A stretch of DNA of 64,000 bases from a virus (Duplodnaviria; Caudoviricetes): positions 588-64,587 of IMG/VR virus record IMGVR_UViG_3300030419_003532; one strand, written 5' to 3'. The notes beneath the pieces are model-generated. The model was not told the DNA's origin, searched no databases, and saw only the letters and a program-made list of their open reading frames with translations. The stretch's first letter is position 1; each line of letters starts with the position of its first letter. Made by a program: the position numbers and the translations under genes. This document shows, piece after piece, positions 1-61,241 of this stretch.

Positions 1-65
1 TATTACTATTGATTTTGTACTAAAAGCAAAGAAATTATAATAAATTTATAAGACAATTTGACAGG

Positions 66-90
66 TTATTAACATTATTTGTGTGGATAA
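66..90. promoter_or_regulatory. Pair of DnaA-box-like sites (TTATTAACA 66-74; perfect TGTGGATAA 82-90)
   Basis: 82-90 is the exact reverse complement of TTATCCACA; a similar pair occurs at 313-330 (TTATGAACA, TGTGGGTAA). Confidence 0.55.
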
Positions 91-92
91 CT

Positions 93-156
93 TAACTGCT
101 TGATAATCAGCACTATAAGTAGTGAATGAGCTAAGTGTTTGATAATCAATGAGTTA
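93..156. promoter_or_regulatory. Three IHF-consensus sites
   Basis: WATCAANNNNTTR matches at 93-105 (-), 132-144 (-) and 144-156 (+). Confidence 0.5.
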
Positions 157-743
157 CAGGCTTATTGTAATGCGTTCTAATGCAATATCTGTAATTCTTA
201 ATGGTAATATACTAGAGGAAGGGTTAAGTCCTTTATATGCGTTCTATTGGCTTCGTATGAGTTTTCATTATATAACAAATTAAATGAGATGTGCAAATGA
301 TTTGGGTAAAAGTTATGAACATGTGGGTAATTTAGATTAGTTCTAATTAAGAGGGGGATAAATTCCCTGCTCTGATTAGCTCAATCGTATTGACTAAACA
401 AATATAAATCCGTGACGTGTGAGCTGTTAATGTTTGGATAAAATACATAGAGATAATTAAGGGGCTTTATATTATATATATTGTATATAAATGGATGATA
501 TATGCAGTAGATTATTCCGTTTCGTTTTCCCCTTTTGTATTTTAGTTTGAAGTATTACGGAATTGGGAGAATTAGGGTACCCCCTAAATTGATTTCGTTT
601 TAGTAATCGTAACTAATATTGGGATATTGTATATTACCCCAAACCTACGTACATCTCACATCATTTTCATACCCACCCGTTGTATATATATTTATATATT
701 TATTTATTTATTTATGGGATTCCCGTGGGATATGCTGTGGTAT

Positions 744-766
744 AAAAAAAGCCCCATATAGGGGCC
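744..766 (-). terminator. Intrinsic terminator closing the leftward small-gene operon
   Basis: GCCCC-ATATA-GGGGC stem with a 7-nt A tract on its left (U tract on the minus strand). Confidence 0.7.
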
Positions 767-782
767 TAAAAGAGCGTAAATA

Positions 783-38100: not shown

Positions 38101-41100
38101 TATATAAAAGGCTCAGATTATTTGAGTAAAGGAGTTAAAAAATCTGTATTAGAAGAAGCTGTTAAAATAAAAACTTCTCAACAATTAGATAGATTTATAT
38201 CTAATGTTGAAGAGATGTCTGAAGCTCAATCTTTATCATCTAATATATCTCATGTAAATAATTTAGGTAAAAAAGTAAAAAAGAAACAATCTAAAGGTCT
38301 TTATGGGGACAAAAGTAAACTTGTTGAAGAGTTTTTAAATAAAGATTTTTCACAGATAACAGACCCTGCTCTTGTAGCTGAAGTTAATAATATTTTAGTT
38401 GATTTAAATAGACGTAAACAGCCTCTTGTAAACCCTAAAGAAATTGAGGTTCTTACAGAAAAATTAGATAATGTTATTGGTACTATAGAGGCTTCTCAAC
38501 CTAAAATTCAAGGAGTTGAAAAGCTGAATACACGGATGGAAAAGATAGAATCAACATTAAAAGATGCAAAATTTGACGTAACATCTACAGAAGGGGCTAA
38601 TGAAGTTATATCTTTAGGTAGAAGTATAGAAGCGTTAAAAAAATCTCTTTATTTATCAGAAACTGAAGGTAAGATAAGCCTTGCTGAATCTCAGAAAATA
38701 CAAGAAAAAATTATTAAATTATCATCTAAGATACAAGGAAAGGTTACTGAGTTTAATACAGAGCGATTTAACCTATCAAAAAATATATTAAAAAATTCTG
38801 ATTTAAGCTCTTATAATAAATATCAAAGAGAAATAATAGAGAAGCTTAAAGAAGTTGATTTTGTTGATAATATTGGGTATAATGACAATATGTATATTGC
38901 TTCTATAAATATATCAAATGGATTCCCTCCTATTAATAATATAAGCAAACTATTAGTTGAAGCTAATAATGGAAGACACGGAAATAATCTATCAGATTTA
39001 TTATCTGAAAGAATAGATAAATGGGCTGGTAAGAAAAAGTATGGTGTTGGGAAAACAGGTTTATGGAGTATGATTCCAACAAATTCTAAATTATTACAAG
39101 AAAGGATGGGGTATAGGCCTTTATCTTTAATTTCTGAATTTTTTAGAGCTGAAGCTGATGTTGAGCATGCTGGGTTAATAGATAAAGCTATTATTGCTCC
39201 TCTTACTAGAAGTTTTTCTAGACATGCAAAAGGGGTTAGAATGGATATAAATGAATGGCAAAATATTTATTCCTCTAAATTAGATAAGGTTTCAAATTGG
39301 ATGATGGATGAAACATCAGGAAGAATACTAGCGATTCCTTTTACTCAAAAATTAAATCCTCTTTATCATAAAAAGCAAAGTTCTGATAATAAGATAGGGG
39401 TTATATTAGCTCAGATAGAAAGAAACTCTCATGATGGTCAGAATGTTTTAAAAACTATAATAGAAAATAAAAGTTTATTTAATCATTATAGTAAATCAGA
39501 GCAATTATATTTAAAAACTATATATAAAAATCTTCCTAAAAAAACAGTTGATGGTAAGGAAGTGATAGATATTGATGCTGCTATTAAAGGATTGACTAAA
39601 AGAGAGAAAAAAATTCTTGATAAATTTAGAGAGTTTACAGATAATGTTTTAAGTCCTAAACAGCAGCTTGCAAATGAATTACGTGGTATTCCTTTTGAAG
39701 TAGTAGAAAATTACTTTCCTCATATATTAAAACCAGGACAGAAAGCTCCTGTTGTTGCTACAGAATTTGAACAATGGGCTGAAAATATTTTTATTAATAA
39801 CAGTAAGATACAGTCTGATGCTGGTAAACAAAGAACTTCTACTGATATTTTAGCTTATGAATTTAATGTTAATAAAGTTATGATGGATAGAATTATGCAG
39901 GTGAATCGTGATTATTATTTAACACAAACTATAAATGAAGTTCGTGAGTTAATAAATAATGGAAAATTAAATAGCGGAAAAGATTATCATATGTATTTTG
40001 ATGCTTTATCTAACAGAATGAGAGAAGCTGTAGAATTAGATTTACATAGAAGCTCTAGCTTAATAAATCAAGAGCTTTTATCTCCTTTTATGACTGCTAC
40101 TTATAGTACAAAATTATTAAGACCAGGGAGGTTGGCTGGTGAGGCTGTTAGTGAAACTATAAGGGTTGGAATAGGAGCTTCAGAAAGACCTTTTCAAGAT
40201 TTGCCTAATTCTTTTAAATCTGTAGCTGATAGAGCTGAAACAAATATTTATAATTCTACAAAAATTGCTGAAGATTTATATCTAAAAACATTTTCACAAA
40301 ATAGTGGTAAAAATATTGGTAAAGAAAATATGAATACCGTATTAAACGAAATTTTAAAAATGACAGATAGTCCATTTATACATAGGTATTCAAGATGGGA
40401 TGTTGAATTTGGAAAAGAAGTTGGGAGAGAGAAGGGTTATTTAAATAAATTTAGTAATTGGGGATTAAGTCTTGTAGATAGAAATACATTATTTATGGCT
40501 TATATGCCTGCCTTTAATAAAGAGTTTAAAAGCATAACTGGAAAAGAATTTGATTATTCTGCATTTAGAGACCCTAAATATAAAGAAACTCATAAACAAG
40601 CAATATTAGATGCTGCAGCTATTGGGGATAGAGCTGCTGCACAATGGAAGAATATTGCTGTAAAGGGAGCTGCTCCTTCAAAAATACGTACTCCTTTATC
40701 TTTATTTGATTTAGCTGGAGTAAAGAGAACTAGCGAATGGGCTCCTGTTTTAACCTATATGAGTTCTTTTGGTGCTCTAGAGACAGCTATGTATCAAAAA
40801 TCAATTAGAGATGTTATGAGTGGAGAAAGTGCAAATACTAAAGCCTTAGGAGGTAAGAGGGCTGTTGCTATTCTTGGTGCTGGGATAACGTATGGTACTA
40901 TTATTGGCCTTGAAATAGCATGGGGTAAACATCTTATGGATAGGCATATAATAGAGACAAGCGATGAGTATGACGCTATGAATAAGTATGACAAAGAACA
41001 AGCTTTAAAAGCAGTTGATGACGAGTGGAATGAATATGTAGACGGGGTTTTTAAGGTTAGTGGATTAAAAAAGCAGATAGTTTCTAATACTGCCTTTTTA

Positions 41101-41691
41101 GTTAACTCTAAATATTCTCAAGCTATGCGTATGTCTTTAGTGGGATTTGGAGGAGCATATCAGCAGTGGTTAAAATCTGATGAATCTACTAGAGAATTTG
41201 ATAAATCTGCTTTAGTAGAAGAGAGTGAGGCTACAAAACAATGGCTTTCAGAAATTATGGGAGAAGATGGTAATAATGTAGACGCACTTCTTAGAGGGGG
41301 TATATACGCAAAGCCTGCTGCAGATGTAGGAGGTGTAGCAGAACAAATGCTTCCTCATATAGATATGGCTATGGAAGTTATGATTAAAGACTTTCCTAAA
41401 GATTTCTGGGAATGGTATCAAGAAGGTCATCATGACCAGCTTGAAGGAGCTGCTTTAACACATGCTAAATACAGAGATGAATTACAGTTTGCTAACTTGG
41501 TTCAGCAAGGAATAAGAATGTATTTTATGTTTAGAGGAACAGCAGTGCCTGGAGACAGATATGTATCAACATATTATAAAGAAATGATGAAAAGATACAA
41601 CTATCCTACAGTACCATATTTTAAAATGAAAGGAGAGGGACATGGAGAACCTGCAGGTTTTGGTAAACCAAAGGGTCATGGTAAAAGATAA
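32122..41691 (+). CDS. Giant internal virion polyvalent protein (3189 aa)
   Basis: Lysozyme-like segment (IIRSE...SSAVGPYQI), hydrophobic segments, zincin HEAGH, DUF3293-like segment (ITAQNP...EN..RN...EDSF...FGQESV). Confidence 0.7.
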   Translation: MLVEEQKYANVSEGIKSIFQLNKKEEDEGDVKNEKYNKDVDITSLSDSDLTPLQFAAKELALTMSDKPDITDEEIFELFPEFNNNPDILKSAKSMAFTFGGDALKKKDTTVVSEDSSEDVENLESETPSTSKDRQTLDNITSKWPALKNLGDIVLNPDESYDMSEYGAGFIEYQSPEQGAVTYAEGVTLEHPSPGNHAITYNPNKTNEQSIKLDMLHAMHSIPEYKGLYDEFATSFKSSKFEGEIKRSYKASKAEGYKDSYEVFETNFIDGIIRNLLFEGTPEDFKKHKYWDKASEVYLSDENIKSSFNELKTYLETGGEETEKVEFSEKDLKRAQSYIDKDFAADETVNKEAYDYLLSQQKPQKEIIPEIPSDFDSDVFKQGIIRSEATGYLTGTPDNLDDKDYSISSKHSSAVGPYQIRYNEFKDILKDKWGIKSKKEFIGNKKVQEEFMSYMLENKPGRYTYMANRIQKDYSEYIPKDMSYQDLVSLQHFIGHGNSRKLFAKVRDNKDFNSEDVYDFIPKGKNMSVGDYLKKMSVPKKSKEKEEPTGMLDKYGNYINPLDDPNLTAGGDDAVQAYVNSQIDDDEEEEKKKKKKSGIRYVEVLDADGTPIKIPEGRPGQSSEEYRKELNEAFESLANSETIEENNRIKKSLGYNIIDRAKEHGTTITAEEFQIVLGDAYQKFEESRLETYQKVIESIDNNKDMNPLNKGFIANVTELVKTEHLYTLHKALMERNIDLHPSQIDSERLKILPHVLHHYYSKLGEGDAYQEFVKYIEEKGGLEEIHKLNVEAWRSAIGGEQMVISNELMGGGVIEDAFGDIKDMTPAERSKYIINAAHHILEREKYDDIPESWISEVANVIANKYHKESPEYKDIEEEARVAALAVYNEENNTDYDTPGVEIQGFQQTIMELNESDLTVQEKVNIIKDKHNIIVKANGAWKWTDDYKNVLNDVIQKSDDKVWKKYVKDNGMEKFHLAEVFENSLAGQLFTLFIDRPINPEWGVEYSELENFIIGVGSVAFDLAIPVIGSGVGKVKSVKIAQQRAWLNEQKLIKIQQFRNQGMKGKQLQNAIIRADLAMEAQLAKYATKTGYYSSAATLGTWFAAMDMTAQYKETHDVTEIHYSDVLLEGAKGGVLGPVTFGIARGTQRINKYVKDRGLPLIIEKPLLGYTWFQGVAVEAGAFMTAESIAHGTAPSFELYKDNLAFILGLRFAKMPFTLAQHEAWDFKKSNKGPYSFKLTEAEREYMGIDSKLNDAQVYNALVREMNKSEKSAEAMMNIMPMSVLSKYIWANVGGKINLSNPLDAVGVEYRSVEGKPNVVEAVNSQGEVLFVERFKSEKEVIEYINKKNTEAPGVIAREILEKDVLTIESKAKLKAALDKLGVTRERAEEILNQEKKNPEEQVVSDAVSEAVKNVYAEQKTKQDKQQKEFDDAIREEAVKVLEKNNITKENPNWDELLAKEILTQTEKALKQAEVIQTEKLNKAAEILLEQEQKEAAGIKETDNWMIRVNLALGKKPEAPIEVTADNIKILRESAITDNQKAAVEDIIKATESLKNLKGKVIVHTDNASYQQVLDAVEKGNIANVTGGHRNLKTGDIHYNLNAVNKWTATHEAGHAWTETIREKNPEKYQKIEDKVYELIKDTPEYAGILDFISTKTEGGEFVYKTEQQQKNEALVEFSARVAKGDYKIKENNKFVNKAKIQLNKLMESIGVEYRFATNDEVISFVNKISKQVGKGKVLEEQVLIEGFKDEANLTRREEVSKDMPKNQLRVNQSKKQFEKEIKDIIEKKKGSFANITAQNPGAKELSPAENAERNKKLYSRLVEMGYKPILIQGKHGVAEDSFYVKGITIKDAVKLGKEFGQESVAHSEGLLYTSGKNEGKMQKSTGKVEFNQDVKDYYSIIETKEGGYKYQIGYEESFENIPYEQVRGEYTYSSMVRGEKAGRKESDFNAGIESIKEGYSDNIMSIEKKYGTSIPGDKQKNKEIKRVKKDLIKYIKGSDYLSKGVKKSVLEEAVKIKTSQQLDRFISNVEEMSEAQSLSSNISHVNNLGKKVKKKQSKGLYGDKSKLVEEFLNKDFSQITDPALVAEVNNILVDLNRRKQPLVNPKEIEVLTEKLDNVIGTIEASQPKIQGVEKLNTRMEKIESTLKDAKFDVTSTEGANEVISLGRSIEALKKSLYLSETEGKISLAESQKIQEKIIKLSSKIQGKVTEFNTERFNLSKNILKNSDLSSYNKYQREIIEKLKEVDFVDNIGYNDNMYIASINISNGFPPINNISKLLVEANNGRHGNNLSDLLSERIDKWAGKKKYGVGKTGLWSMIPTNSKLLQERMGYRPLSLISEFFRAEADVEHAGLIDKAIIAPLTRSFSRHAKGVRMDINEWQNIYSSKLDKVSNWMMDETSGRILAIPFTQKLNPLYHKKQSSDNKIGVILAQIERNSHDGQNVLKTIIENKSLFNHYSKSEQLYLKTIYKNLPKKTVDGKEVIDIDAAIKGLTKREKKILDKFREFTDNVLSPKQQLANELRGIPFEVVENYFPHILKPGQKAPVVATEFEQWAENIFINNSKIQSDAGKQRTSTDILAYEFNVNKVMMDRIMQVNRDYYLTQTINEVRELINNGKLNSGKDYHMYFDALSNRMREAVELDLHRSSSLINQELLSPFMTATYSTKLLRPGRLAGEAVSETIRVGIGASERPFQDLPNSFKSVADRAETNIYNSTKIAEDLYLKTFSQNSGKNIGKENMNTVLNEILKMTDSPFIHRYSRWDVEFGKEVGREKGYLNKFSNWGLSLVDRNTLFMAYMPAFNKEFKSITGKEFDYSAFRDPKYKETHKQAILDAAAIGDRAAAQWKNIAVKGAAPSKIRTPLSLFDLAGVKRTSEWAPVLTYMSSFGALETAMYQKSIRDVMSGESANTKALGGKRAVAILGAGITYGTIIGLEIAWGKHLMDRHIIETSDEYDAMNKYDKEQALKAVDDEWNEYVDGVFKVSGLKKQIVSNTAFLVNSKYSQAMRMSLVGFGGAYQQWLKSDESTREFDKSALVEESEATKQWLSEIMGEDGNNVDALLRGGIYAKPAADVGGVAEQMLPHIDMAMEVMIKDFPKDFWEWYQEGHHDQLEGAALTHAKYRDELQFANLVQQGIRMYFMFRGTAVPGDRYVSTYYKEMMKRYNYPTVPYFKMKGEGHGEPAGFGKPKGHGKR

Positions 41692-41737
41692 TTAAATCAT
41701 GATGATAGTGATTTGAATAAAATAATTAACATAGAAC

Positions 41738-41768
41738 TTGTTAATAAGAATAAAAAACATTATATTTG
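41738..41768 (+). promoter_or_regulatory. SigmaA-type promoter
   Basis: TTG 41738-41740 + 20 nt + TATATTTG 41761-41768. Confidence 0.7.
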
Positions 41769-41790
41769 TAACTAATAAAAATTTAAAAAA

Positions 41791-42450
41791 ATGAATCAAA
41801 CGGATTATTTAGCATTAGGGATGGGAGGGCCTACCTTGCTAATGCACGATGGAGACGCATGTGCTCAAATAAGAGGGTTTGCAGTTCAAGCTTTAGAAGA
41901 CTGTGTATTTTCTGAATTTAGTTTAAACACATTTCCATTTGTGACTTATGATGGTCAACCAGACTACATAGAATCTTCAACACACGGAAGTGATTTAGTA
42001 ACTTTAACTGCACATCAATTTAAAACAGGAGACAAAGTTGTTGTTTCTACAAATGGTAAAGCTTCTTTGCCTAACGGATTATCTGATGACCAGATATATT
42101 ATATAATAAAAGCTTCTGATGACACAGTTAAGTTTGCTTTATCTTATGCTAATGCAATTGCAGGAACCGTTGTAGCTACGTCAAGTGATGGAAGTAGTAT
42201 TACAAATGCTACTATACAAAAAGTAACTGACGAAAATTTAGCTACTCATCGTAGTAATACAAAACAAGCTACATTTACTATATCAGGAGGTAGTGCTTTA
42301 GAGATAACTAAACATGTAGATGGTAATACAGATATGTTTGACACAGATGGAGCTGAAGATGTAAAACTTCCTAAAGGCATGACTGTATATTTACCTGTAT
42401 GGGCTATTACCCTTACTACTGGTGCTTGTATAGTTTATACTAGAAAATAA
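41791..42450 (+). CDS. Probable tail-associated protein with FCCH-like insert
   Basis: AHQFKTGDKV...GL....YYIIK....KFALS. Confidence 0.55.
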   Translation: MNQTDYLALGMGGPTLLMHDGDACAQIRGFAVQALEDCVFSEFSLNTFPFVTYDGQPDYIESSTHGSDLVTLTAHQFKTGDKVVVSTNGKASLPNGLSDDQIYYIIKASDDTVKFALSYANAIAGTVVATSSDGSSITNATIQKVTDENLATHRSNTKQATFTISGGSALEITKHVDGNTDMFDTDGAEDVKLPKGMTVYLPVWAITLTTGACIVYTRK

Positions 42451-42451
42451 A

Positions 42452-42730
42452 ATGGGAGGAAGTCTAGGGTTAGGATTAGGTTTTGAAGAGCATAATGTTG
42501 CTTCTGATGCGGCAGCAGCAATTATAGACGGTTCTTGCTTCTGGATTAAAACAGGTACGGGAGCTAGTGCAGAATTAAAACCTTATGAGAAAGGAACTGT
42601 AACTGACTATAATTTGATATGGGATTTAGATGTTAGTCCAGGACTTAATAATTATATGCCTGAGTCATCTCCTGCCACAGATTGTAACTGGGAAAAAGAC
42701 GGCTCAAATATAATGCCTATAAGCACTTAA
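42452..42730 (+). CDS. Small probable structural protein
   Basis: LGLGLG N-terminus typical of fibre-associated proteins. Confidence 0.5.
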   Translation: MGGSLGLGLGFEEHNVASDAAAAIIDGSCFWIKTGTGASAELKPYEKGTVTDYNLIWDLDVSPGLNNYMPESSPATDCNWEKDGSNIMPIST

Positions 42731-42756
42731 TATGCCGTGGGATTCCCATAAATAAA
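42731..42756 (+). repeat. Dispersed 26-nt element TATGCCGTGGSATTSCCATAAATAAA (copy 1)
   Basis: 24/26 identical to the minus-strand copy at 61216-61241; degenerate copy at ~700-733. Confidence 0.75.
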
Positions 42757-42783
42757 TAACTAAATAAATTAAATTTAAGAAAA

Positions 42784-42999
42784 ATGGCAAAAGAAAATAA
42801 TGTTGAAATAGACAAAAACGCAAAAATAGAAAAGAAACCTATTAGTCTTGAAGAGAAAAGACTTATAGAACTAAGAAATAAAATGTCTGAAAAGATAGAG
42901 GATGTACAAGATTTAGACGAATATGTAAAAATATATATGACATTAGTATTAAGTTATGCATCTACATTAAATATAAATTTTGATAATTTAAAAGAATAA
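42784..42999 (+). CDS. Hypothetical protein
   Basis: ORF track; A-rich leader. Confidence 0.55.
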   Translation: MAKENNVEIDKNAKIEKKPISLEEKRLIELRNKMSEKIEDVQDLDEYVKIYMTLVLSYASTLNINFDNLKE

Positions 43000-43003
43000 A
43001 ATT

Positions 43004-43927
43004 ATGGCAACACCAAATATAGTACCTAGAAACGATGGAGAAGGGGGTTTAGGAACCGCAGCAAAAGGTTGGGGCGGTGCCTTTATAACAAATAAAACAG
43101 CAAGTAGTGCTACTGAAGGTGGTAAATTAGTATTAGCAGCTGATGACGGTGCGACAATAGCACAAAACCATAGGTTAGGAGTTATAGAATTTAAAGGAGC
43201 TGAAGATTCTAGTAGCAACCTAACTGTAGGAGCAAGAATTGAGGCTATTGTTCATGATGATTGGTCTCCCTCATCAAATAATTGTAATTTAGATTTTTAT
43301 ACCACATCTGGAAATGCATCAGAAGCTAAAGTGTTAAGATTAGATAAAGATAAATTAGCTACATTTGAAGGGGCTGTAAAGGCTAGTAATGATTCTGTAA
43401 CTGGAAGAAATTACAGGACAATATATGTGGATGCAGGAGCAATGGTTCCTACAGAAACAAACGGAGCTCAAGCTGGTACAGAAGAGCTAGCAACTAATGA
43501 TGTTATGGTTGATTACTTTGCTTTTGATGCAAGTACAGATGAGAAAGTGCAATTTAAAATGGTTATGCCTGAGCAATGGGACAATGGAACTATTAAGGCT
43601 AAATTTTATTGGAAATCGTCAAATACAGATACAGGAACCGTTGCTTGGTTTATACAAGCTGTAGCACATGCAGATAGTGCAGTTTTAGATACAGCTTTTG
43701 GTACTGCCGTAACAGCAACAGCTGATGCAGGTAGTGGTACAGATAATGATTTACATATAACAGCTGCTTCTGCCGCTATGACTGTAGCTGGTAGTCCAGC
43801 GGAAGGCGAGATGGTAATGTTTCAGATATATAGAGATGTTAGTGCTGATAATTATAATGCAGACGCTCACTTGTTAGGTGTAAACCTACAATATAGAGAA
43901 TCAGCAACAGCAAGTGCTGCTTGGTAA
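43004..43927 (+). CDS. Tail fibre/spike-like protein
   Basis: NIVPR..EGGLGT..K.W fibre N-terminus; beta-sandwich C-terminus. Confidence 0.6.
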   Translation: MATPNIVPRNDGEGGLGTAAKGWGGAFITNKTASSATEGGKLVLAADDGATIAQNHRLGVIEFKGAEDSSSNLTVGARIEAIVHDDWSPSSNNCNLDFYTTSGNASEAKVLRLDKDKLATFEGAVKASNDSVTGRNYRTIYVDAGAMVPTETNGAQAGTEELATNDVMVDYFAFDASTDEKVQFKMVMPEQWDNGTIKAKFYWKSSNTDTGTVAWFIQAVAHADSAVLDTAFGTAVTATADAGSGTDNDLHITAASAAMTVAGSPAEGEMVMFQIYRDVSADNYNADAHLLGVNLQYRESATASAAW

Positions 43928-43939
43928 TAAATAAATAAC

Positions 43940-44755
43940 ATGCATACAGGAAGACATAGATATAGAACTCATGCTGGTATACCTCATGGAAGTACTGTAA
44001 ATGCTGGTACAGATTTAGAAATATGTTATTTGTGGAAACAAGCAGTGACATATGCAGGGGCAGAACATACTACTGAAGAAGATGAAAGTGCTACAGTAAA
44101 TTTGGTTTCTTTATGGCGAGACAGTGGTGCTAACGGTAATAATGCGTCACAAGAAACTGATGAGGTAAAACCTGTGTATCAAAGCGATGGAGGTATAGAT
44201 TTTCAGAATAAAGGGGATAACGCTAGTTATGCAGATGAAATGGAATTTACTAAATTTAATACCGCTGCCAATACAGACTTTATTTCTTTTATAGTATGTA
44301 GTTTAGGTAATGTAGCTACATCTTGTTATTTATCAGATGGTGGGGCAGAGGTATTACAATATACCAGTGCAACTCAACATCAGTTTAAAACAAGTTCTAC
44401 AAGTAATATGACTCATGGCGGAGGAACAGTTAGTGGAGGAAGTTTATTTCAACATACAGCCGATGAAAAACATCTTATGGTTGTACATAGAACAAATGGA
44501 AGTACTGGGACTATGAAGATATATAAAAACGGAATAGTTTGTAATGGACATAATAATAACGGAACTACAAATGCAAATGCTTTTGATTTGAAATGGTTAG
44601 GGGCAAAAAATAGTGCTTCAAACTGGTTTGACGGAGTAATGTATGATGTAATTTTTATAAACGGAAATTCAGCAACCGATAGGAATAGAGAGTTAATAAC
44701 AAATTATTTATTAACAAAACATGGTATAGAGTTTCAAAGTAATTCTGACGCTTAA
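43940..44755 (+). CDS. Concanavalin A/LamG-like lectin domain protein (receptor-binding candidate)
   Basis: VSLWRD.SG.N...KIYKNG...LG...WFDG.MYDVI...YL..KHG. Confidence 0.6.
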   Translation: MHTGRHRYRTHAGIPHGSTVNAGTDLEICYLWKQAVTYAGAEHTTEEDESATVNLVSLWRDSGANGNNASQETDEVKPVYQSDGGIDFQNKGDNASYADEMEFTKFNTAANTDFISFIVCSLGNVATSCYLSDGGAEVLQYTSATQHQFKTSSTSNMTHGGGTVSGGSLFQHTADEKHLMVVHRTNGSTGTMKIYKNGIVCNGHNNNGTTNANAFDLKWLGAKNSASNWFDGVMYDVIFINGNSATDRNRELITNYLLTKHGIEFQSNSDA

Positions 44756-44766
44756 AAAACAAGGTT

Positions 44767-45825
44767 ATGATTAGGGGATTAATCTTAATAATTTTCATTT
44801 TTATATCCTTTTCTGGAAAGGCACAATTTGATTTAAAAGAATTTTACAAAAAAACATTTAAGTTTTCTACTTTTTATGGAGCTGTAAGTGGAGGTACTTC
44901 AATTTCAGATGAAGAAGTTTTTAACGTTTCTACGGGGTTACTAGAGCAGAGTAGTATACAGACACCTTTTGACTATAATATTGCTTTAGGAGTGCGGAAA
45001 ATAGCTAGATTCGGCTACGAGAACAAAGCAAACACCTTTTATGATGGTACAGAGTCAACATATAGTGATGCTGCTACTATTGGTAAAGTTAAAGGGTTTG
45101 AATTTTTATTTGAATACAACTATAAAAGACAGGAGGGGGTTAACTACTTAGACCAGAATCATTTTCTTAGATATGTAGGTAAAAATTACATACTAAAAGG
45201 AGAGTATGTAGAGGATGGTTTTGCAGATATAAAATACTTTGAAACTTCTCAAAGATATAGATATAATAAAAATAATAAACTTTCATTTAATATAGGGGCT
45301 GTTCAAAGAATGTCAGAACCTTATGGTTACGACCCTTTAGAGGAATGGCTACTTTCAAACGGTAGCTTGCATTACACTTATTTAGCAATACAAGAAGGTT
45401 ATACTATAGATGTCGCTAAAAGCGAATATAAAAACCCACAAGGAGAGATTGTGGCTACTAGCGTAGAAGTTTGGGAAGCTGTGGTGATACCAGAAGTATT
45501 GGCAGATTATGTAGAGAAGAAAAGAGATGAATTAGATAGGAAGATGCTCCAGTCTTTTGTTGTGGGTTTTGATTTCTATCATTATAAAAAAGATTTTTGG
45601 TTACACTCTTGGGGTAGTCTTATGCCTTGGCATTATGATGATGGAGGCAGTTATTCTTATCATAATTACAACAACGGAGAGCAGTGGTATGACTATTCTG
45701 GAGGTTTAATATTTGGATATAAAGTAACTAAAAATTTAGGTACATTTATAGAGGGAAAATATAATAAATATTGGAATCGTGAATGGTACGATTTTAAATT
45801 TGGTGTTAACTATATTATACTATGA
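44767..45825 (+). CDS. Outer-membrane beta-barrel protein
   Basis: Signal peptide (…GKA/QF), Tyr/Phe/Trp-rich alternating strands, terminal strand YDFKFGVNYII. Confidence 0.65.
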   Translation: MIRGLILIIFIFISFSGKAQFDLKEFYKKTFKFSTFYGAVSGGTSISDEEVFNVSTGLLEQSSIQTPFDYNIALGVRKIARFGYENKANTFYDGTESTYSDAATIGKVKGFEFLFEYNYKRQEGVNYLDQNHFLRYVGKNYILKGEYVEDGFADIKYFETSQRYRYNKNNKLSFNIGAVQRMSEPYGYDPLEEWLLSNGSLHYTYLAIQEGYTIDVAKSEYKNPQGEIVATSVEVWEAVVIPEVLADYVEKKRDELDRKMLQSFVVGFDFYHYKKDFWLHSWGSLMPWHYDDGGSYSYHNYNNGEQWYDYSGGLIFGYKVTKNLGTFIEGKYNKYWNREWYDFKFGVNYIIL

Positions 45826-46031
45826 ACATAACTAACGAGCAACTACATCAAGAAATGCTTATTATGAAGCAGGATTTAAGAGAGATTAAAAAGAAACTTT
45901 TAGACCCAGATGATGGTGCAGTTGCTAGAGTAAATAGAAACACATCATTTAGAAAAGGAGCTCAAAAGACCTTGTGGTCTATATGGCTTGCAATTATAGG
46001 AATATTAGGTAAATTATTATTTTTTGATTAA
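45822..46031 (+). CDS. Coiled-coil protein with C-terminal TM helix
   Basis: Heptad N-terminus, hydrophobic C-terminus. Confidence 0.6.
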   Translation: MNITNEQLHQEMLIMKQDLREIKKKLLDPDDGAVARVNRNTSFRKGAQKTLWSIWLAIIGILGKLLFFD

Positions 46032-46032
46032 G

Positions 46033-46308
46033 ATGGCGAAAGAATTAAACGAAGATACAAGTTTTAAATTAAGTATAAAAACACTTATTGCAATTGGATT
46101 TGCTATGGCAACTCTTATTAGTATGTATTTTATGTTGCAATCTGATATAGAAGAAGCTAAAGAGCTTCCAAAACCAGATGTAACTAGAATGGAGTTTAAT
46201 ATGAAAGATGTTAATATACGTCAATCTATTGAGCATACAGAGAAAGCTGTTGATGAGATTAAAGAAGATTTGAAAAGAATGGAGGATAAAATAGACGATT
46301 TGAGATGA
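46033..46308 (+). CDS. Membrane-anchored coiled-coil protein
   Basis: TM at the N-terminus, then coiled coil; ATG start at MAKEL. Confidence 0.6.
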   Translation: MAKELNEDTSFKLSIKTLIAIGFAMATLISMYFMLQSDIEEAKELPKPDVTRMEFNMKDVNIRQSIEHTEKAVDEIKEDLKRMEDKIDDLR

Positions 46309-46655
46309 AAGAAACTTGGAGAGTATTTAGTGTGTATATGTTGATTTTAATATTAATGTTATTTTGTGGAATAACTTTTGGACAGGTTAAGGTAGTACAA
46401 TACAATGCGGATTGGAATAATGCAAACAAAGTTGAATGGTTAAATAAATTAACAGACTGCAGTATAAAATATATAGATATAACAGAAAAACCTGAAGCAC
46501 AAAAAAAATATGAAATAGTAGTTGTACCGACAATTATTGTTTTTAAAGACGGAGAGGAAGTTAAAAGATTCCAAGCAGACATATCTTTTAGTATAAAAGC
46601 TAAATTAGAAGATGTACAAGAAATTATTGACGAACAATTAATGAGTGATTTTTAA
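46305..46655 (+). CDS. Exported thioredoxin-fold protein lacking CxxC
   Basis: Signal/TM; VVQYNADWN in place of F.A.WCxxC; YEIVVVPTIIVFKDGEEVKRF cis-Pro motif. Confidence 0.7.
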   Translation: MKETWRVFSVYMLILILMLFCGITFGQVKVVQYNADWNNANKVEWLNKLTDCSIKYIDITEKPEAQKKYEIVVVPTIIVFKDGEEVKRFQADISFSIKAKLEDVQEIIDEQLMSDF

Positions 46656-46766
46656 ATGAAAAAAATATTATTTATATTAATATTAGTTTTAACAAGTTGC
46701 TCATTACAAAAACAGACCTGCAACAAAGAAACAAAAAAATGTTGTGAAAAAAAAGAATTAAAATGA
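46656..46766 (+). CDS. Small lipoprotein, 36 aa (MKKILFILILVLTS/CSLQKQTCNKETKKCCEKKELK)
   Basis: Hand translation; lipobox LTSC; abuts both neighbours. Confidence 0.65.
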   Translation: MKKILFILILVLTSCSLQKQTCNKETKKCCEKKELK

Positions 46767-46840
46767 AAGGAAAAATTTGTAAATTAGTGTATAAGATTAG
46801 CTGTGGTAAAATTTGCTTCGGCTGGTGTGGAACAAAATAA
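46763..46840 (+). CDS. Cationic 4-Cys micropeptide, 25 aa (MKGKICKLVYKISCGKICFGWCGTK)
   Basis: Hand translation; ATGA overlap upstream; stop directly abuts ATG 46841. Confidence 0.6.
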   Translation: MKGKICKLVYKISCGKICFGWCGTK

Positions 46841-47209
46841 ATGTATTCTTATAAAATAAAATTAGATAGAGTAGTTGATGGGGATACTATTGATGCTTAT
46901 ATAGACTTAGGCTTTGATGTTTCAATAAAAAAAAGAATTAGATTTATGGGGATTAATACTCCTGAATCAAGAACTAGAGATTTAGAAGAAAAAGCAAGAG
47001 GTTTAGCTGCTAAAGATAGAGTTAAACAATTATTAGAGGGAGCTAATTTAATAAAATTAGATTCTCACGGAGTCGGAAAATATGGAAGATGTCTAGGAGA
47101 ATTACATATAGATGTAGTAGATGGGCAAGAAAAAATGACGTTAGAAAGTATAAATGAATTATTAATTAAAGAGGGTCATGCTGTAGAGTATCATGGCGGT
47201 AAAAGATGA
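46841..47209 (+). CDS. Staphylococcal nuclease (thermonuclease)-like protein
   Basis: RVVDGDT, RIRFMGINTPE, GKYGRCLG, INELLIKEGHA. Confidence 0.85.
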   Translation: MYSYKIKLDRVVDGDTIDAYIDLGFDVSIKKRIRFMGINTPESRTRDLEEKARGLAAKDRVKQLLEGANLIKLDSHGVGKYGRCLGELHIDVVDGQEKMTLESINELLIKEGHAVEYHGGKR

Positions 47210-50164: not shown

Positions 50165-50234
50165 TGTTATGGCTTATTATATAGGTAAAGAAGCTTTAGA
50201 CACAAAGGTTGATGGAATTGAATTATAAAATAGT

Positions 50235-50585: not shown

Positions 50586-50600
50586 ATTAAAAAATAAATT

Positions 50601-51460: not shown

Positions 51461-51461
51461 A

Positions 51462-52050: not shown

Positions 52051-52058
52051 TTTTTTAT

Positions 52059-52829: not shown

Positions 52830-52843
52830 ATCTTAAATTTATA

Positions 52844-53171: not shown

Positions 53172-53174
53172 AAT

Positions 53175-55448: not shown

Positions 55449-57203
55449 TTAGTAGGGTAATAAATTTTCACTAATGTTAACTAAATCTTCTAGCGGATAA
55501 TCTCCTGTAAATGTTTTAAATCTATTTGAAAGCCTGTCATATCTTAATTTGATAGGGTTCCCAGTTGGTACTCCTACTAATTTTTGAAATTTTATTTTCT
55601 GAACGTGTATATCTACAGTTGTGTCAGAAAAATCTTTTGGGTTAGGCCTATGAACAGTTATTATATTATCCGCTTTATTAAACCAGTTACTTCCACCTGC
55701 TATTCTGTATGCTGTAGGAACCTCATTGTCTCCAGAGCCTTTATCACTTCTCATAGTTATAGGGTGTGCTACAACCATAAATTTAAGATGATAGTTTTTC
55801 GTAAATTTTCTAATTTTATTTAATGTATCCGCTACATATATAGCTTCTGTCATTCCTCTAAAATCATGGTCTATCTGATTAAACGGGTCAATCAAAACCC
55901 CTTTTATACCTTTTCTTAAAACTAAATGTTTAAATTTATCAAGTATATTACTCAGGGTAAAACTATCTTCTGGATATACAATAAAGAAATGTTTATTGAC
56001 AAATTTCATCCCTCTAGAATACTCTGTCATACTCATTCTTCGTTTAGACTCAATATCAGAAGTTTTTCCTATATACATTTCAACCAATGTCTCGTACAGC
56101 TCTCCTATAGGATAATTCTCTGGAGAAAAAACACCCCATTTCCACCCATATAATATAGAGCCATTCATCATAAGTTGAAAACAAAATGAGGTTTTCCCAT
56201 GACCAGGTATTCCTGTAAAGACATCAAATTCTCCCATCCTGAAAGTGTAGTGTGGATTTAAATCATCGTAACCAGTGGTGTCCCCTTTTTTCTTACCATT
56301 ATGATAAGAATCTATCATCATATCTTCAACGTCAGAAACAGAAAATACTCCATCTACTGGATAATCCCTAGCGTTATTATAGCACTCTAGCAGTTTATCT
56401 TTACCATAATTTACTAGAACATCATTTGCATCTTTACAATTTTCTGGAAAATCAATAATCATTATCCTTTCCTTCCCTAGTCTTCTAGCTAATTCTTCAA
56501 GCAACCTTCTTCCGTTTACATCATTATCTACTGCTATAAATATATTATCCATACTCTCAAAATATCTATGACAATTATCAAGATAAGAGAATTTAGTTTC
56601 TACATTTTTAGCATTAGGATTAGGAGCTCCATCTGGAACGCTCACCGTTTCTGTTTTACCTATAACGTCAAAAGATAATTTATCAATTTCTCCCTCAACA
56701 ATTATACAGGTGTTAGTATCTTTAATATCATCCAGACCATAAAATATTTTTTCTGCCCCAGCAACTTGTTTAAAATTCTTATCTCCATCTCTGTATTTTA
56801 TATTTATTAACTCTCCATCTCTATAATAGTTAAAACAAATACAATTTCTGTTTTTCTCAACTTGAGGCATATATATACTGCACTCTGTAACCTTATTTCT
56901 TTCAAGAATACTTTTAGAAATACCTCTTTTATCAAAATACTCTACAATCTTACTAGGAAGAACTCTCTTCTTTATAAGCTTTGGTTTTGTGTACTGTTTA
57001 TTATCCATTAATTTATCTTTAATAACCCCAGACCAAGCACAGTGATGACATGTGAACAAGCCTGTATCAGTATTTATAGCTAAACAAGGTTCTTTCTTCT
57101 TTTTTCTTTGGTGAGAACATCTAGGACATACAGCCTTAACTTCAGAAGACCATCTTCCTTTATAGGTTATTCCAAAGTCTGAAAGAAGGCTTCTGTCTAT
57201 CAT
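55449..57203 (-). CDS. Primase-helicase (T7 gp4/Twinkle-like)
   Basis: Zn finger CPRC...CHHC, Toprim EGEID and DND, Walker A GIPGHGKT, IDPFN, VAHP. Confidence 0.9.
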   Translation of the reverse strand: MIDRSLLSDFGITYKGRWSSEVKAVCPRCSHQRKKKKEPCLAINTDTGLFTCHHCAWSGVIKDKLMDNKQYTKPKLIKKRVLPSKIVEYFDKRGISKSILERNKVTECSIYMPQVEKNRNCICFNYYRDGELINIKYRDGDKNFKQVAGAEKIFYGLDDIKDTNTCIIVEGEIDKLSFDVIGKTETVSVPDGAPNPNAKNVETKFSYLDNCHRYFESMDNIFIAVDNDVNGRRLLEELARRLGKERIMIIDFPENCKDANDVLVNYGKDKLLECYNNARDYPVDGVFSVSDVEDMMIDSYHNGKKKGDTTGYDDLNPHYTFRMGEFDVFTGIPGHGKTSFCFQLMMNGSILYGWKWGVFSPENYPIGELYETLVEMYIGKTSDIESKRRMSMTEYSRGMKFVNKHFFIVYPEDSFTLSNILDKFKHLVLRKGIKGVLIDPFNQIDHDFRGMTEAIYVADTLNKIRKFTKNYHLKFMVVAHPITMRSDKGSGDNEVPTAYRIAGGSNWFNKADNIITVHRPNPKDFSDTTVDIHVQKIKFQKLVGVPTGNPIKLRYDRLSNRFKTFTGDYPLEDLVNISENLLPY

Positions 57204-57868
57204 CCTTTAAAGGCTTTATCAAAATCCTCCTTAGTCATATTATCGTAAGACTTTTCAGATACGACTGAATTATTATTTATTAGCTCATCATTCCAAGACT
57301 CATTTCTTAGATAAGTCTCTGGGTTTTTTCTGTATTTCTTATCAGGCTGTGCTTTTTTATATTTATCTATGTAATTTATCGCTTCTTCTTTTTTATCTTT
57401 TGAAAGTTTCTTCCATAAAGACTCGCATTTAGTTCTAGCGGTCTTCTTATCATATTCATCCCAAAATTCATCAAACCTATCTAGATTTCCCCATCTTTTC
57501 ATAGATTTATCTTTCTGCATTTGATTTTTTTTGTCTCTGATGCTCAGTCTTTTAATCAAACTAGAAGACCAAAAGAAAGAGTCATCAGATTCAAAAAGAG
57601 AGAAAGAGTCCACACAATCTTTTATAAATTCAGATAATTTATCTGGATTAGTTTGCATTCTCTTTGATAATACAGAAAGATAACCTTTATTATTAATCGG
57701 TAGTCTGTATTCTTCCTCCATTGATAGTGTTTCTATGATAATCCAATAGAACCCATACCCTTCAGCACCCCATACAGACATCATGAGTTCTATTTTTATA
57801 TCACTCCACGCATCAGTGTCGTGTGAGAAATAAAACGATTTAGTTTTAGCCATCTCTTCAGCAGTCAT
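57200..57868 (-). CDS. DUF4373/Lin1244-like replication initiator
   Basis: YFSHD...GAEGYGFYWIIIE; C-terminal FDEFW..Y.KK...NPETYL...WNDE. Confidence 0.75.
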   Translation of the reverse strand: MTAEEMAKTKSFYFSHDTDAWSDIKIELMMSVWGAEGYGFYWIIIETLSMEEEYRLPINNKGYLSVLSKRMQTNPDKLSEFIKDCVDSFSLFESDDSFFWSSSLIKRLSIRDKKNQMQKDKSMKRWGNLDRFDEFWDEYDKKTARTKCESLWKKLSKDKKEEAINYIDKYKKAQPDKKYRKNPETYLRNESWNDELINNNSVVSEKSYDNMTKEDFDKAFKG

Positions 57869-60819: not shown

Positions 60820-61194
60820 TTAATAACTTTTTATGTCATTCATGTAGTCTAGGAGGTCGTCAACCACTTCTTTAGGTACATTTCCTTCTGAAACTTCATT
60901 TTTCATAGCTTCTATTGTTGTTAATTGTTGTATTTTATGCATAACTTGAGGATATTTTATAGCATACATCACACTTATTAAGACTTGTTTTGTCTTAATG
61001 CAGTGCATTATAAAAGCTTCTTGACCTTCTAGCTCTAAAACCTCCATATCCTCGTATTTATCTACCATATGCTCATCATACACCTTATCTGATAGCTCTA
61101 GTTTCCTTATAGATTCATTTAAAACTAGAGCAATCTCATCTATAAGCATCTTTATTAAAGATACTTTTTCTTCAAATTCCATTTTTCCAAACAT
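60820..61194 (-). CDS. Hypothetical protein
   Basis: ORF track; start at MFGK after the A-rich leader (alternative start 61245). Confidence 0.6.
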   Translation of the reverse strand: MFGKMEFEEKVSLIKMLIDEIALVLNESIRKLELSDKVYDEHMVDKYEDMEVLELEGQEAFIMHCIKTKQVLISVMYAIKYPQVMHKIQQLTTIEAMKNEVSEGNVPKEVVDDLLDYMNDIKSY

Positions 61195-61215: not shown

Positions 61216-61241
61216 TTTATTTATGGCAATGCCACGGCATA
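61216..61241 (-). repeat. Dispersed 26-nt element (copy 2)
   Basis: TATGCCGTGGCATTGCCATAAATAAA. Confidence 0.75.

What the first reader, a model, noticed from the sequence alone, without database searches (positions are those of the whole stretch)
42731..42756. Dispersed element right after stop codons: covarying palindrome that also encodes a 7-aa minigene (MPWxxHK)
Seen: TATGCCGTGGGATTCCCATAAATAAA (42731,+) and TATGCCGTGGCATTGCCATAAATAAA (61241,-) each begin on the base after the upstream stop codon. They differ at just two positions, which covary (TGGG-ATT-CCCA versus TGGC-ATT-GCCA). Each reads ATG..TAA as MPWDSHK or MPWHCHK, followed by an A-rich leader and a new gene. A degenerate copy is at ~700-733 (-). 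Inference: an undescribed cis-element (operator palindrome, RNA hairpin/processing site, ribosome-stalling minigene, or recombination site of inserted gene cassettes) shared by early and late regions.
Basis: partly seen in the sequence, partly recalled or inferred. Interest (0 to 1): 0.7.

Follow-up and report, generated by a model that had tools for sequence, protein, structure and literature searches.

The report
Dispersed replication-origin-type protein-binding sites in phage
The repeated palindrome is real, but it is most likely a binding site for the phage's own DNA-replication starter protein joined to an easily melted A/T-rich stretch, present three times in this marine phage genome, rather than an RNA hairpin or a tiny gene.

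Summary
In detail: two 26-nt copies (42731-42756 +, 61216-61241 -) differ only at two dyad-symmetric positions. A degenerate third copy lies at 708-733 (-). None is expected by chance.

The window is nearly all of a 64.6-kb crAss-related podophage of a Bacteroidota host.

Relatives lack the exact motif but carry the same kind of element at equivalent places, with a different dyad in each phage. G001 has ATAGGTACCTAT three times, and G003, G004, L008 and L009 have GCATTGC. In several relatives the unit is repeated 2-4 times with an 11-nt period, and it always abuts YATAAR plus an A/T-rich tract.

The tandem form GCATTGC-N4-GCATTGCTAT occurs in 79 viral-contig stretches, against 2 for the backwards control. 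Where it lies inside an ORF, 15 of 20 tested ORFs are replication-initiator or primosomal genes. This phage encodes an initiator with the same N-terminal domain, Lin1244_N.

Best reading (about 0.55): initiator-binding, origin-type sites like SPP1 oriL/oriR. The rivals are a factor-dependent promoter or operator, an RNA hairpin, a cassette junction and a minigene. The last is rejected, because 4 of 6 copies in G000 and G001 have no ATG.

The parts
42731..42756 (+). Copy 1 of the element. It has a 5' partial unit TATGCCG, the dyad TGGGA-T-TCCCA (42738-42748), then CATAAATAAA.
42757..42783 (+). A/T-rich tract and leader between copy 1 and the ATG of ORF71. It is 37 nt from the C of CATAAAT to the ATG.
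42784..42999 (+). ORF71, an ORFan directly behind copy 1. Element plus ORF71 (42731-43000) form an insertion relative to L005 and L006.
61216..61241 (-). Copy 2. The dyad TGGCA-T-TGCCA (61234-61224) contains the canonical GCATTGC core. A TGCC also lies 11 nt upstream.
60820..61194 (-). ORF124 behind copy 2. The ATG lies 31 nt after the start of CATAAAT. Its only homologue among the compared relatives is in G001 (31% identity).
708..733 (-). Copy 3, degenerate: ATATCCCAC then the dyad GGGA-A-TCCC (724-716), then CATAAATAA. TCCCA recurs 11 nt apart.
683..715 (-). A 33-nt pure A/T tract behind copy 3. A 29-nt part of it is identical in G001, L145 (the contig of L008) and L146 (the contig of L007). 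It is a candidate DNA-unwinding element.
744..767 (-). Intrinsic-terminator-like hairpin (GGCCCC-TATAT-GGGGC plus a T run). It ends the upstream minus-strand operon just before copy 3.
   Evidence: read from the sequence
1..682 (-). Repeat-rich non-coding region behind copy 3. It continues to about record position 400, outside the window. It has CTGATTATCAAGC-type repeats and a perfect DnaA box TTATCCACA at window 82-90; a second box lies at record position 522.
57200..57868 (-). Phage replication-initiator gene (222 aa) with an N-terminal Lin1244_N domain. It is the inferred binder of the element.

Best explanation
The element is a double-stranded-DNA binding site for the phage's own replication initiator, the 222-aa Lin1244_N protein encoded at 57200-57868 (-). 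It is a dyad-symmetric unit derived from the widespread iteron core GCATTGC, joined to an A/T-rich tract that can serve as an unwinding element. The phage carries three such origin-type sites. Copy 3 sits at the head of a roughly 900-nt non-coding region and is the likely main origin. Copy 2 sits about 0.7 kb upstream of the recombination and replication genes. Copy 1 sits in the late arm next to an inserted ORFan. This layout resembles SPP1 oriL/oriR, where the initiator also binds a second site in the late region.

Shown: the sites; their conservation in position with lineage-specific cores; the 11-nt phasing in relatives; the association of GCATTGC arrays with initiator genes; and the presence of such an initiator here.

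Inferred: that this initiator binds these sites, and that replication starts or stalls there.
For: (1) Equivalent sites occur in relatives with a phage-specific dyad. G001 has 3 copies of ATAGGT[A/T]CCTAT+TAC+TATAAATAA at 2024 (+), 20444 (-) and 27177 (-). G003 has 3 copies with GCA[A/T]TGC+TATAAGA. G004 has 2. L145, L146, L219, L009 and G002 have a copy-3 equivalent.

(2) The units repeat with an 11-nt period. Self-match at shift 11 is 0.64-0.92 at 5 of 14 sites, against 0.28 +/- 0.10 in 2000 control segments. In an unbiased scan of 11 sources, 6 of the 14 period-11 segments are these sites. Periods 10 and 13 give 2 and 3 segments.

(3) The last unit always abuts YATAAR and an A/T-rich tract, in 14 of 14 sites. 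At copy 3 a 29-nt A/T sequence is identical across G000, G001, L145 and L146 although the dyad differs.

(4) GCATTGC-N4-GCATTGCTAT occurs in 79 viral-contig stretches, against 2 for the pattern read backwards. After de-duplication there are 39 loci, and in 22 of them the array lies inside an ORF. I tested 20 of these 22 ORFs. 15 match replication-initiation, primosomal or replisome-organizer families. In these the array starts at residue 99-162, just behind the N-terminal domain, which is the lambda O/ori-lambda layout.

(5) The G000 initiator matches the same families (phrog_2562, 38715, 24189, 20981, 9327). It has Lin1244_N (E 9.3e-18), as do 4 of the 7 other initiators tested; the other 3 have DUF1376.

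(6) Copy 3 is inverted in G003 and G004 relative to the local genes. This fits a DNA-level site.

(7) Precedent: the SPP1 origins oriL (inside gene 38) and oriR (in the late region beside moron genes) are both direct repeats plus an AT-rich unwinding element bound by gp38 (passages of PMC6316719).
Against: G000 itself has only one full dyad per site plus a weak upstream partial unit (shift-11 self-match 0.32-0.40), so it is not an array. Copies 1 and 3 carry GGATTCC or GGAATCC rather than GCATTGC.

Sites 1 and 2 are co-oriented with the downstream gene in 7 of 7 cases. Their YATAAR lies 26-39 nt before the ATG. That is where host-type -7 boxes sit, 22-30 nt before the ATG, so a promoter reading also fits.

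G004 has no late-arm copy, and the complete relative G006 has no recognisable element at all.

Among the 14 intergenic GCATTGC-array loci outside this phage group, at most 3 of the 53 neighbouring ORFs matched any one primosomal family (phrog_3992 3, phrog_9327 3). 3 others matched a transcription-regulator family.

The G000 and G001 initiators are 80% identical although their dyads differ. No binding or replication data exist.
Confidence: 0.55

Rival explanations
1. The element is a factor-dependent promoter or operator. A phage-specific DNA-binding protein, which could even be the initiator acting as a regulator, binds the phased units just upstream of a -10-like YATAAR. It switches on, or blocks, three transcription units: the early/non-coding region, the replication module and the accessory-plus-lysis module. 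The logic would be that of lambda CII at TTGC-N6-TTGC or of PhoB boxes (7+4-nt repeats), both recalled.
For: Sites 1 and 2 are co-oriented with the next gene in 7 of 7 cases, and YATAAR lies 26-39 nt before the ATG. Host-type TAnnTTTG boxes sit 22-30 nt before the ATG. The two intergenic gaps that hold copies 1 and 2 contain no host-type promoter. In the early arm between copy 3 and window 60791, TAnnTTTG occurs only four times, and none of these passes the strict TTG-N16-22-TAnnTTTG scan of the window. Element plus ORF71 looks like a moron, that is a promoter plus a gene. 3 of the 53 ORFs next to intergenic GCATTGC arrays match a transcription-regulator family.
Against: Copy 3 is inverted in G003 and G004. 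15 of the 20 ORFs that hold GCATTGC arrays are replication-initiator genes, where a promoter has no obvious role. YATAAR does not match the Bacteroidota TAnnTTTG box used throughout this genome. TATAAATA alone occurs 26 times in G000, so it carries little information. No sigma-like or RNA-polymerase gene was found.
Confidence: 0.25
2. The element acts as a folded single strand. The options are an RNA hairpin (a processing site, a nut-like antitermination site or a translational operator) or an N4-type DNA hairpin promoter for a virion RNA polymerase.
For: The two G000 differences are compensatory in a 5-bp stem with a 3-nt loop. The element is co-oriented with transcription at sites 1 and 2. 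The phage has a 3189-aa virion-type protein, and crAss-like phages inject an RNA polymerase whose early promoters have no known motif (passages of preprint 10.1101/2020.03.07.982082).
Against: The folds are no better than shuffles (z -0.8, -0.7 and -0.1 for G000). In G001 the dyad is not in the minimum-energy fold in 2 of 3 copies, and z is positive for all three. Relatives have direct 11-nt repeats rather than one stem. Copy 3 is inverted in G003 and G004. The 3189-aa protein shows no polymerase signal: it has no PHROG match, only DUF3293 in Pfam, no PDB sequence match, and Atlas features of lysozyme (N half, 0.81) and LPD38/LPD39 polyvalent proteins (C half, 0.91). No Rfam family matches the sites. 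No terminator-like sites above shuffle level lie downstream.
Confidence: 0.07
3. The element is a recombination junction of gene cassettes. Short conserved intergenic repeats would promote insertion, loss or swapping of accessory genes, as PeSL motifs are proposed to do in T4-type phages.
For: Element plus ORF71 is an insertion relative to L005 and L006. All three sites lie at breaks of nucleotide homology with G001. The genes behind the sites differ among relatives.
Against: There are only 2-3 copies per genome, at conserved positions in four genomes. The core differs between close relatives, which would hinder exchange between them. The copies do not flank cassettes on both sides. The link to initiator genes in other phages is not explained. 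This could be a side effect of any repeated site rather than its function.
Confidence: 0.08
4. The element is a translated 7-codon minigene (MPWxxHK) that stalls ribosomes or otherwise regulates the downstream gene.
For: Both full G000 copies read ATG..TAA in the same frame.
Against: There is no ATG in G000 copy 3 or in any of the 3 G001 copies. The peptide is not conserved in G003, L145 or L009, where ATGs arise from the GCAT/ATGC content of the dyads. The two differing positions change two residues (D-S to H-C), so the nucleotide symmetry is kept, not the peptide.
Confidence: 0.01

Closest known systems
Bacillus phage SPP1 origins oriL and oriR with the origin-binding protein gp38 (G38P)
   Same: There are two or more origin-type sites per genome, each made of initiator-binding repeats plus an AT-rich unwinding element. 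One lies in the late region in a segment that also holds moron genes. The initiator is a 'replisome organizer'-type protein (passages of PMC6316719; abstract of PMC3485210 seen in the listing). PHROG 'replisome organizer' and 'replication initiation' families match the array-bearing genes of other phages, and phrog_2562 matches the G000 protein.
   Different: In SPP1, oriL lies inside gene 38. In G000 no site lies inside the initiator gene. G000 has three sites, each with one dyad rather than an array. The unit sequence is unrelated to what I recall of the SPP1 boxes. Binding and function are untested here.
Lambda ori inside gene O (iterons bound by O protein dimers) (recalled)
   Same: The units are dyad-symmetric, in helical phase and followed by an A/T-rich region. 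Specificity differs among close relatives. In 15 other phage contigs the GCATTGC array sits in the linker just behind the initiator's N-terminal DNA-binding domain.
   Different: The unit here is 7 nt with an 11-nt period, against 19-bp iterons in lambda (recalled). The initiator has a different N-terminal domain family (Lin1244_N or DUF1376). In the G000 lineage the sites lie outside the gene and are dispersed.
PeSL (promoter-early stem-loop) motifs of T4-type phages (PMC2839356, PMC4122927; listing and start of abstracts only)
   Same: These are short conserved intergenic motifs next to variable ORFans, proposed to mediate modular shuffling.
   Different: As I recall, PeSLs combine a host-type early promoter with a terminator-like stem-loop and occur in many copies in hyperplastic regions. 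Here there is no host-type promoter, no stable stem-loop and only 3 copies.
N4 virion-RNA-polymerase hairpin promoters P1-P3 (recalled; PMC4496689 seen in the listing only)
   Same: There are three copies of a short dyad with a 3-nt centre, and a giant virion protein gene is present.
   Different: No polymerase signal was found in the 3189-aa protein. The stems are shorter and are not conserved as structures. One copy lies in the late arm.

Membership tests
Phage replication origin of the iteron type (initiator-binding repeats plus an AT-rich unwinding element) | Repeated binding units in helical phase | tested here: inconclusive
   Clear in relatives at the equivalent sites: shift-11 self-match is 0.64-0.92 at G002-3, G004-2, G004-3, L145-3 and L009-3, and 6 of 14 period-11 segments are these sites. 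In G000 itself there is one dyad plus a weak partial unit (0.32-0.40).
Phage replication origin of the iteron type (initiator-binding repeats plus an AT-rich unwinding element) | A/T-rich tract directly beside the units | tested here: met
   Met in 14 of 14 aligned sites. There are 33 nt of pure A/T behind copy 3, and a 29-nt part is identical in G001, L145 and L146.
Phage replication origin of the iteron type (initiator-binding repeats plus an AT-rich unwinding element) | A cognate initiator encoded by the same genome, of a family linked to the same unit elsewhere | tested here: met
   The 222-aa protein at 57200-57868 matches phrog_2562 (2.2e-17) and Lin1244_N (9.3e-18). 15 of the 20 tested ORFs that hold GCATTGC arrays belong to initiator or primosomal families.
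Phage replication origin of the iteron type (initiator-binding repeats plus an AT-rich unwinding element) | The initiator binds the units, and replication starts (or forks stall) there | not testable with these tools
   This needs band-shift or footprint assays and marker-frequency or 2D-gel mapping.
N4-type hairpin promoter | Stable 5-7-bp stem with a 3-nt loop, conserved as a structure | tested here: not met
   G000 folds at -5.6, -5.1 and -2.7 kcal/mol with z -0.8 to -0.1. In G001 the dyads are not in the minimum-energy fold in 2 of 3 copies.
N4-type hairpin promoter | A virion-packaged RNA polymerase encoded by the phage | tested here: inconclusive
   No polymerase family was found in any large ORF. 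The 3189-aa ORF has no PDB sequence match and has Atlas features of lysozyme and LPD38/39. No structure was predicted, so a very divergent polymerase domain is not excluded.
PeSL-type mobile regulatory cassette | A host-type early promoter plus a stem-loop in each copy, with many copies flanking variable ORFs | tested here: not met
   No TAnnTTTG box lies in the gaps holding copies 1 and 2. There is no stable stem. There are 3 copies. One variable ORF lies behind copy 1.
Regulatory minigene / leader peptide | Start codon and reading frame conserved in all copies and in relatives | tested here: not met
   The ATG is absent in G000 copy 3 and in 3 of 3 G001 copies.
Activator-dependent promoter with phased direct repeats (lambda CII or PhoB-box type; recalled) | Repeats one helical turn apart, placed just upstream of a -10-like element at promoter distance from the gene | tested here: inconclusive
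   The geometry fits: an 11-nt period and YATAAR 26-39 nt before the ATG in 7 of 7 cases at sites 1 and 2. Copy 3 flips in G003 and G004, and no start sites are known.

The most novel reading that the evidence does not exclude
GCATTGC units with an 11-bp period are an undescribed, widespread 'iteron code' of phage initiators that carry Lin1244_N or DUF1376 N-terminal domains. In this crAss-related flavobacterial phage lineage the origin has left the initiator gene and split into 2-3 dispersed sites whose core changes quickly between sister phages. The late-arm copy would act like SPP1 oriR, as a bound roadblock that switches theta replication to concatemer replication. It would also mark a place where ORFans are inserted.
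Probability: 0.3. Interest if true: 0.6.

Novelty: new variant of a known kind. Interest (0 to 1): 0.45.

Why it matters
Replication origins of crAss-related and other Bacteroidota phages are essentially unmapped. A short sequence signature (GCATTGC-type dyads in 11-bp phase next to an A/T tract) that travels with one class of initiator genes would allow origins to be predicted in thousands of uncultured phage genomes. My one literature search on the point (DUF4373, Lin1244, iteron, replication origin) listed, among the 10 rows shown of 272 hits, no paper containing DUF4373 or Lin1244. Supplementary files were not consulted.

The lineage studied here shows how fast the site changes. Three different cores occur among phages whose terminase is 87-90% identical. 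This is a natural series for studying initiator-site co-evolution. For annotation, it warns that a 'covarying palindrome' in a phage intergenic gap need not be an RNA structure.

Tried and rejected
- The exact motif was sought elsewhere. There were 0 matches in viral contigs. There were 2 in genome contigs, both without shared flanks and apparently inside coding sequence, so I took them as chance. There were 0 of 5 relatives at up to 3 mismatches.
- A blastn of window 41700-45900 against cultured phages gave no match.
- RNA evidence: no RNA holder was listed among 15 runs.
- Four DNA runs (X2-X5, Logan contigs) were laid on 42300-62000 at 80% likeness. The output was short contigs from mixed relatives and gave no usable information on the sites. 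One 252-nt contig of X2 bridges copy 1 (42645-42896) with 5 differences.
Of the 80 loci I screened, 6 passed a downstream filter and only L219 is a true relative.
- The T4-late-promoter idea (TATAAATA) was dropped. The octamer occurs 26 times in G000, mostly inside genes.
- The phi14:2 middle promoters (4 gene upstream regions read) are of the host type TTG...TAnnTTTG. That is the other promoter class of this genome, not this element.
- The strict 11-nt scan (threshold 0.8) found none of the sites. The result rests on the threshold of 0.7.
- The cognate protein was sought by identity patterns across relatives, and no ORF tracks the core type. Pfam and PHROG searches of 20 small or unassigned ORFs gave only a weak HTH_36 hit (58205-58519) and Bac_DnaA_C (58519-59109).
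- Terminator-like sites downstream of copies 1 and 2 numbered 10 found against 8.3 +/- 3.3 in shuffles.
- Earlier-findings look-ups returned nothing.

Full report
**1. The observation**

The two full copies are at the stated coordinates, and each starts on the base after the stop codon of the upstream ORF. They differ at 2 of 26 positions, which are the symmetric pair of an 11-nt dyad, TGG[G/C]A-T-T[C/G]CCA. They translate as MPWDSHK* and MPWHCHK*.

With up to 3 mismatches the 26-nt pattern matches only these two places, and 0 of 100 shuffles give any match. A 21-nt pattern also recovers the degenerate copy at 708-728 (-), and 0 of 100 shuffles reach three matches.

**2. The genome**

The window is bases 588-64587 of a 64,587-bp virus record rated 97% complete. 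The + strand from 6780 to 51830 holds these genes:
- terminase large subunit, portal and a capsid-like protein;
- structural and tail-fibre genes;
- a 3189-aa ORF;
- accessory genes, including a 927-aa protein with a T9SS sorting domain;
- a holin and an amidase.

The - strand from 52059 to the window end holds replication and recombination genes (primase-helicase, an initiator, two exonucleases, RusA) and then small early ORFs.

The nearest cultured phages by terminase are at 36-41% identity. They are Flavobacterium, Maribacter, Cellulophaga and Bacteroides crAss-like phages.

Many intergenic gaps on both arms carry the Bacteroidota promoter form TTG...TA..TTTG. This is the same form as the middle promoters of Cellulophaga phage phi14:2, which I read from its record. 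The gaps that hold copies 1 and 2 do not carry it.

Copy 3 follows a terminator-like hairpin. It opens a roughly 900-nt non-coding, repeat-rich region that runs across the record's start into the small early ORFs.

**3. Relatives**

The exact motif is absent from viral contigs and from 5 of 5 related records at up to 3 mismatches. Two matches in bacterial genomes look like chance. Reading the equivalent places shows the same kind of element with another core.

- **G001** (52.7 kb; terminase 87% identical) has exactly three copies of ATAGGT[A/T]CCTAT-TAC-TATAAATAA. One directly follows the stop of the tail-fibre-like gene on the late arm. One lies in the early arm before a gene. One lies at the copy-3 place.
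- **G003** (63.4 kb) has three copies built on GCA[A/T]TGC-TATAAGA. One lies just behind the homologue of the 80-aa ORF that precedes copy 2 in G000.
- **G004** has two copies.
- **G002, L145/L008, L146/L007, L219 and L009** each show the copy-3 equivalent.
- **G006**, a complete but more distant relative, shows none.

At copy 3 the A/T tract is conserved: 29 nt are identical in G000, G001, L145 and L146. The dyad beside it differs between these phages.

**4. Architecture**

I aligned 14 sites on the YATAAR that follows the last unit. The sequence upstream is often a tandem direct repeat of 11 nt.
- L009: CAGCATTGCTA three times.
- G004: GCATTGCTCAA, GCATTGCATCA, GCATTGCTATA.
- L145: GCAATGCAAAT, GCATTCCAAAT, GCAATGC.
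- G002: TCCCATCGCAT, TCCCATGGGAT, ACCCGTGGGAA, TCC.

Self-match at shift 11 is 0.64-0.92 at 5 sites and 0.52 at one more. In 2000 control segments it is 0.28 +/- 0.10. G003 has a 6/12-nt period. G000 is weak at 0.32-0.40, with TGCC or TCCCA recurring 11 nt apart.

A genome-wide scan of 11 sources found 14 period-11 segments, and 6 of them are these sites. Periods 10 and 13 give 2 and 3 segments. Periods 12 and 15 are common because of codon structure. A stricter threshold missed the sites.

One helical turn between units points to a protein array on double-stranded DNA.

As RNA, the G000 dyads fold no better than shuffles. The G001 dyads are not part of the best fold in 2 of 3 copies. No Rfam family matches any site.

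The TAAATAA part is generic for this phage. Four early ORFs share the leader AAAACTAAATAACTATGGAA.

**5. The link to replication**

The tandem form GCATTGC-N4-GCATTGCTAT occurs in 79 stretches of viral contigs (81 matches). The same pattern read backwards occurs in 2.

After removing near-duplicates, 39 loci remain. In 22 of them the array lies inside an ORF of at least 60 aa. I scanned 20 of those 22 ORFs and left out two short ones, in L289 and L313.
- 15 match replication-initiation, primosomal, O-like, DnaD-like or replisome-organizer families.
- One is a clamp loader.
- One is a tail fibre.
- Three have no family.

From the coordinates, the arrays begin at residue 99-162 in the 15 initiator ORFs. 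That is just behind the N-terminal domain, which is Lin1244_N in 4 and DUF1376 in 3 of the 7 tested. This is the layout of lambda ori inside gene O (recalled).

Of the 17 loci with an intergenic array, 3 belong to G004 or L009. For the other 14 I scanned 53 neighbouring ORFs. phrog_3992 and phrog_9327 (primosomal) each matched 3 members, a transcription-regulator family matched 3, and an unnamed family matched 5. That part is therefore weaker.

G000 encodes a 222-aa initiator (57200-57868, -) that matches the same PHROG set and Lin1244_N (E 9.3e-18). Its gene holds no array. Copy 2 of the G000 element contains GCATTGC exactly. Copies 1 and 3 carry the symmetric double variant GGATTCC or GGAATCC.

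**6. Reading**

The simplest account is that the element is an origin-type site: a dyad unit for the initiator plus an A/T-rich tract. It is present three times in this lineage and lies outside the initiator gene.

SPP1 offers a close precedent. oriL lies inside gene 38. oriR lies in the late region in a segment with moron genes. Both are direct repeats plus an AT-rich unwinding element bound by gp38. gp38 bound at oriR is thought to stall forks and trigger the switch to concatemer synthesis (passages of PMC6316719; abstract of PMC3485210 in the listing).

Copy 1 of G000 likewise sits in the late arm beside an ORFan. In L005 and L006 the homologues of the 92-aa and 307-aa genes are adjacent, so 42731-43000 is an insertion. 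ORF71 has no match in 7 of 7 compared relatives.

The inversion of the copy-3 module in G003 and G004 fits a DNA-level site.

The 'covariation' is then a change of both half-sites of a dimer site, or a hold-over of the older GCATTGC core at copy 2. It is not evidence of base pairing.

**7. What speaks against it**

- G000 has single dyads, not arrays.
- Sites 1 and 2 are co-oriented with the next gene in 7 of 7 cases, with YATAAR 26-39 nt before the ATG. That is the place a promoter would occupy (compare). I therefore keep a factor-dependent promoter or operator as a strong rival (0.25). The two readings could also both hold if the initiator doubles as a regulator, or if transcription activates the origin.
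- The G000 and G001 initiators are 80% identical although their dyads differ.
- Nothing here shows binding or initiation.

**8. Other rivals**

- **N4-like hairpin promoter.** It lacks a polymerase. The 3189-aa ORF has no PHROG match, only DUF3293 in Pfam, no PDB sequence match, and Atlas features of lysozyme (0.81) and LPD38/39 polyvalent proteins (0.91). I did not fold it, so a very divergent domain is not excluded. The phi14:2 preprint says early transcripts made by the virion polymerase show no common upstream motif (passages).
- **Cassette-junction idea.** It explains the variable neighbours but not the conserved positions or the initiator link.
- **Minigene.** It is contradicted by the missing ATG in 4 of the 6 copies of G000 and G001.

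**9. Limits**

- Relatives are metagenomic contigs.
- G002, G005, G007 and G008 are fragments.
- Gene calls in relatives come from my simple ORF script.
- No RNA data could be found.
- The laid DNA contigs were uninformative.
- Supplementary files of papers were not consulted.

Noticed in passing
window 82-90 (-), record position 522 (outside the window) and window 58519-59109 (-): Two perfect DnaA boxes TTATCCACA lie 155 nt apart on the same strand in the non-coding region behind copy 3. No perfect box occurs in the five relatives checked. The phage also encodes a 196-aa protein with a Bac_DnaA_C helix-turn-helix domain (E 7.7e-12).
   Followed up: partly
window 58165-58199 (-): An Rfam DUF805b RNA motif (45.5 bits, gathering score 35.6) lies in the gap between two minus-strand genes of the replication arm.
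   Followed up: no
G001 15948-25843; G004 14189-20835; G003 3290-15497: A second dispersed dyad, TCGGACAAGTCCGA, occurs about 8 times per genome in the early arms of G001 and G004. G003 has the variant TAGGAC(A/TT)GTCCTA. Where read, it lies about 20-30 nt before early start codons. G000 has no equivalent.
   Followed up: partly
viral-contig loci L263-L341: Arrays of 2-6 GCATTGC units with an 11-nt period are common in unrelated phage contigs of 4-145 kb, mostly inside replication-initiator genes. Some lie in non-coding regions rich in TGGCAATGGCA-like motifs.
   Followed up: partly
L144 9730-9758 (-): The same 29-nt A/T sequence as behind copy 3 occurs in a contig with quite different flanks (GTGTCGGGACAG repeats).
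   Followed up: no
window 783-2249 (-), and G003 16640-17479 and G004 21853-23305: An operon of very small, extremely lysine/arginine-rich proteins has its own host-type promoter and, in G000, a terminator. It ends just before copy 3.
   Followed up: no
window 32122-41691 (+): The 3189-aa ORF has no PHROG match. It has DUF3293 at residues 1795-1864 and Atlas features of lysozyme/SLT (N half, 0.81) and LPD38/LPD39 polyvalent proteins (C half, 0.91). It is probably an ejected multi-domain protein.
   Followed up: partly
window 47381-50164 (+): A 927-aa phage protein ends in a Por_Secre_tail (type IX secretion sorting) domain (E 4.7e-07).
   Followed up: no
window 62285-62304, 62387-62406, 62934-62953 and 63747-63766: Four early ORFs share a nearly identical 20-nt translation-start region. 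On the coding strand it reads AAAACTAAATAACTATGGAA.
   Followed up: no
window 60491-60819 (-): A 329-nt gap lies upstream of the exonuclease gene. It has a strong host-type promoter (TATATTTG ending at 60784) and a G+C-rich stretch of unknown role.
   Followed up: no
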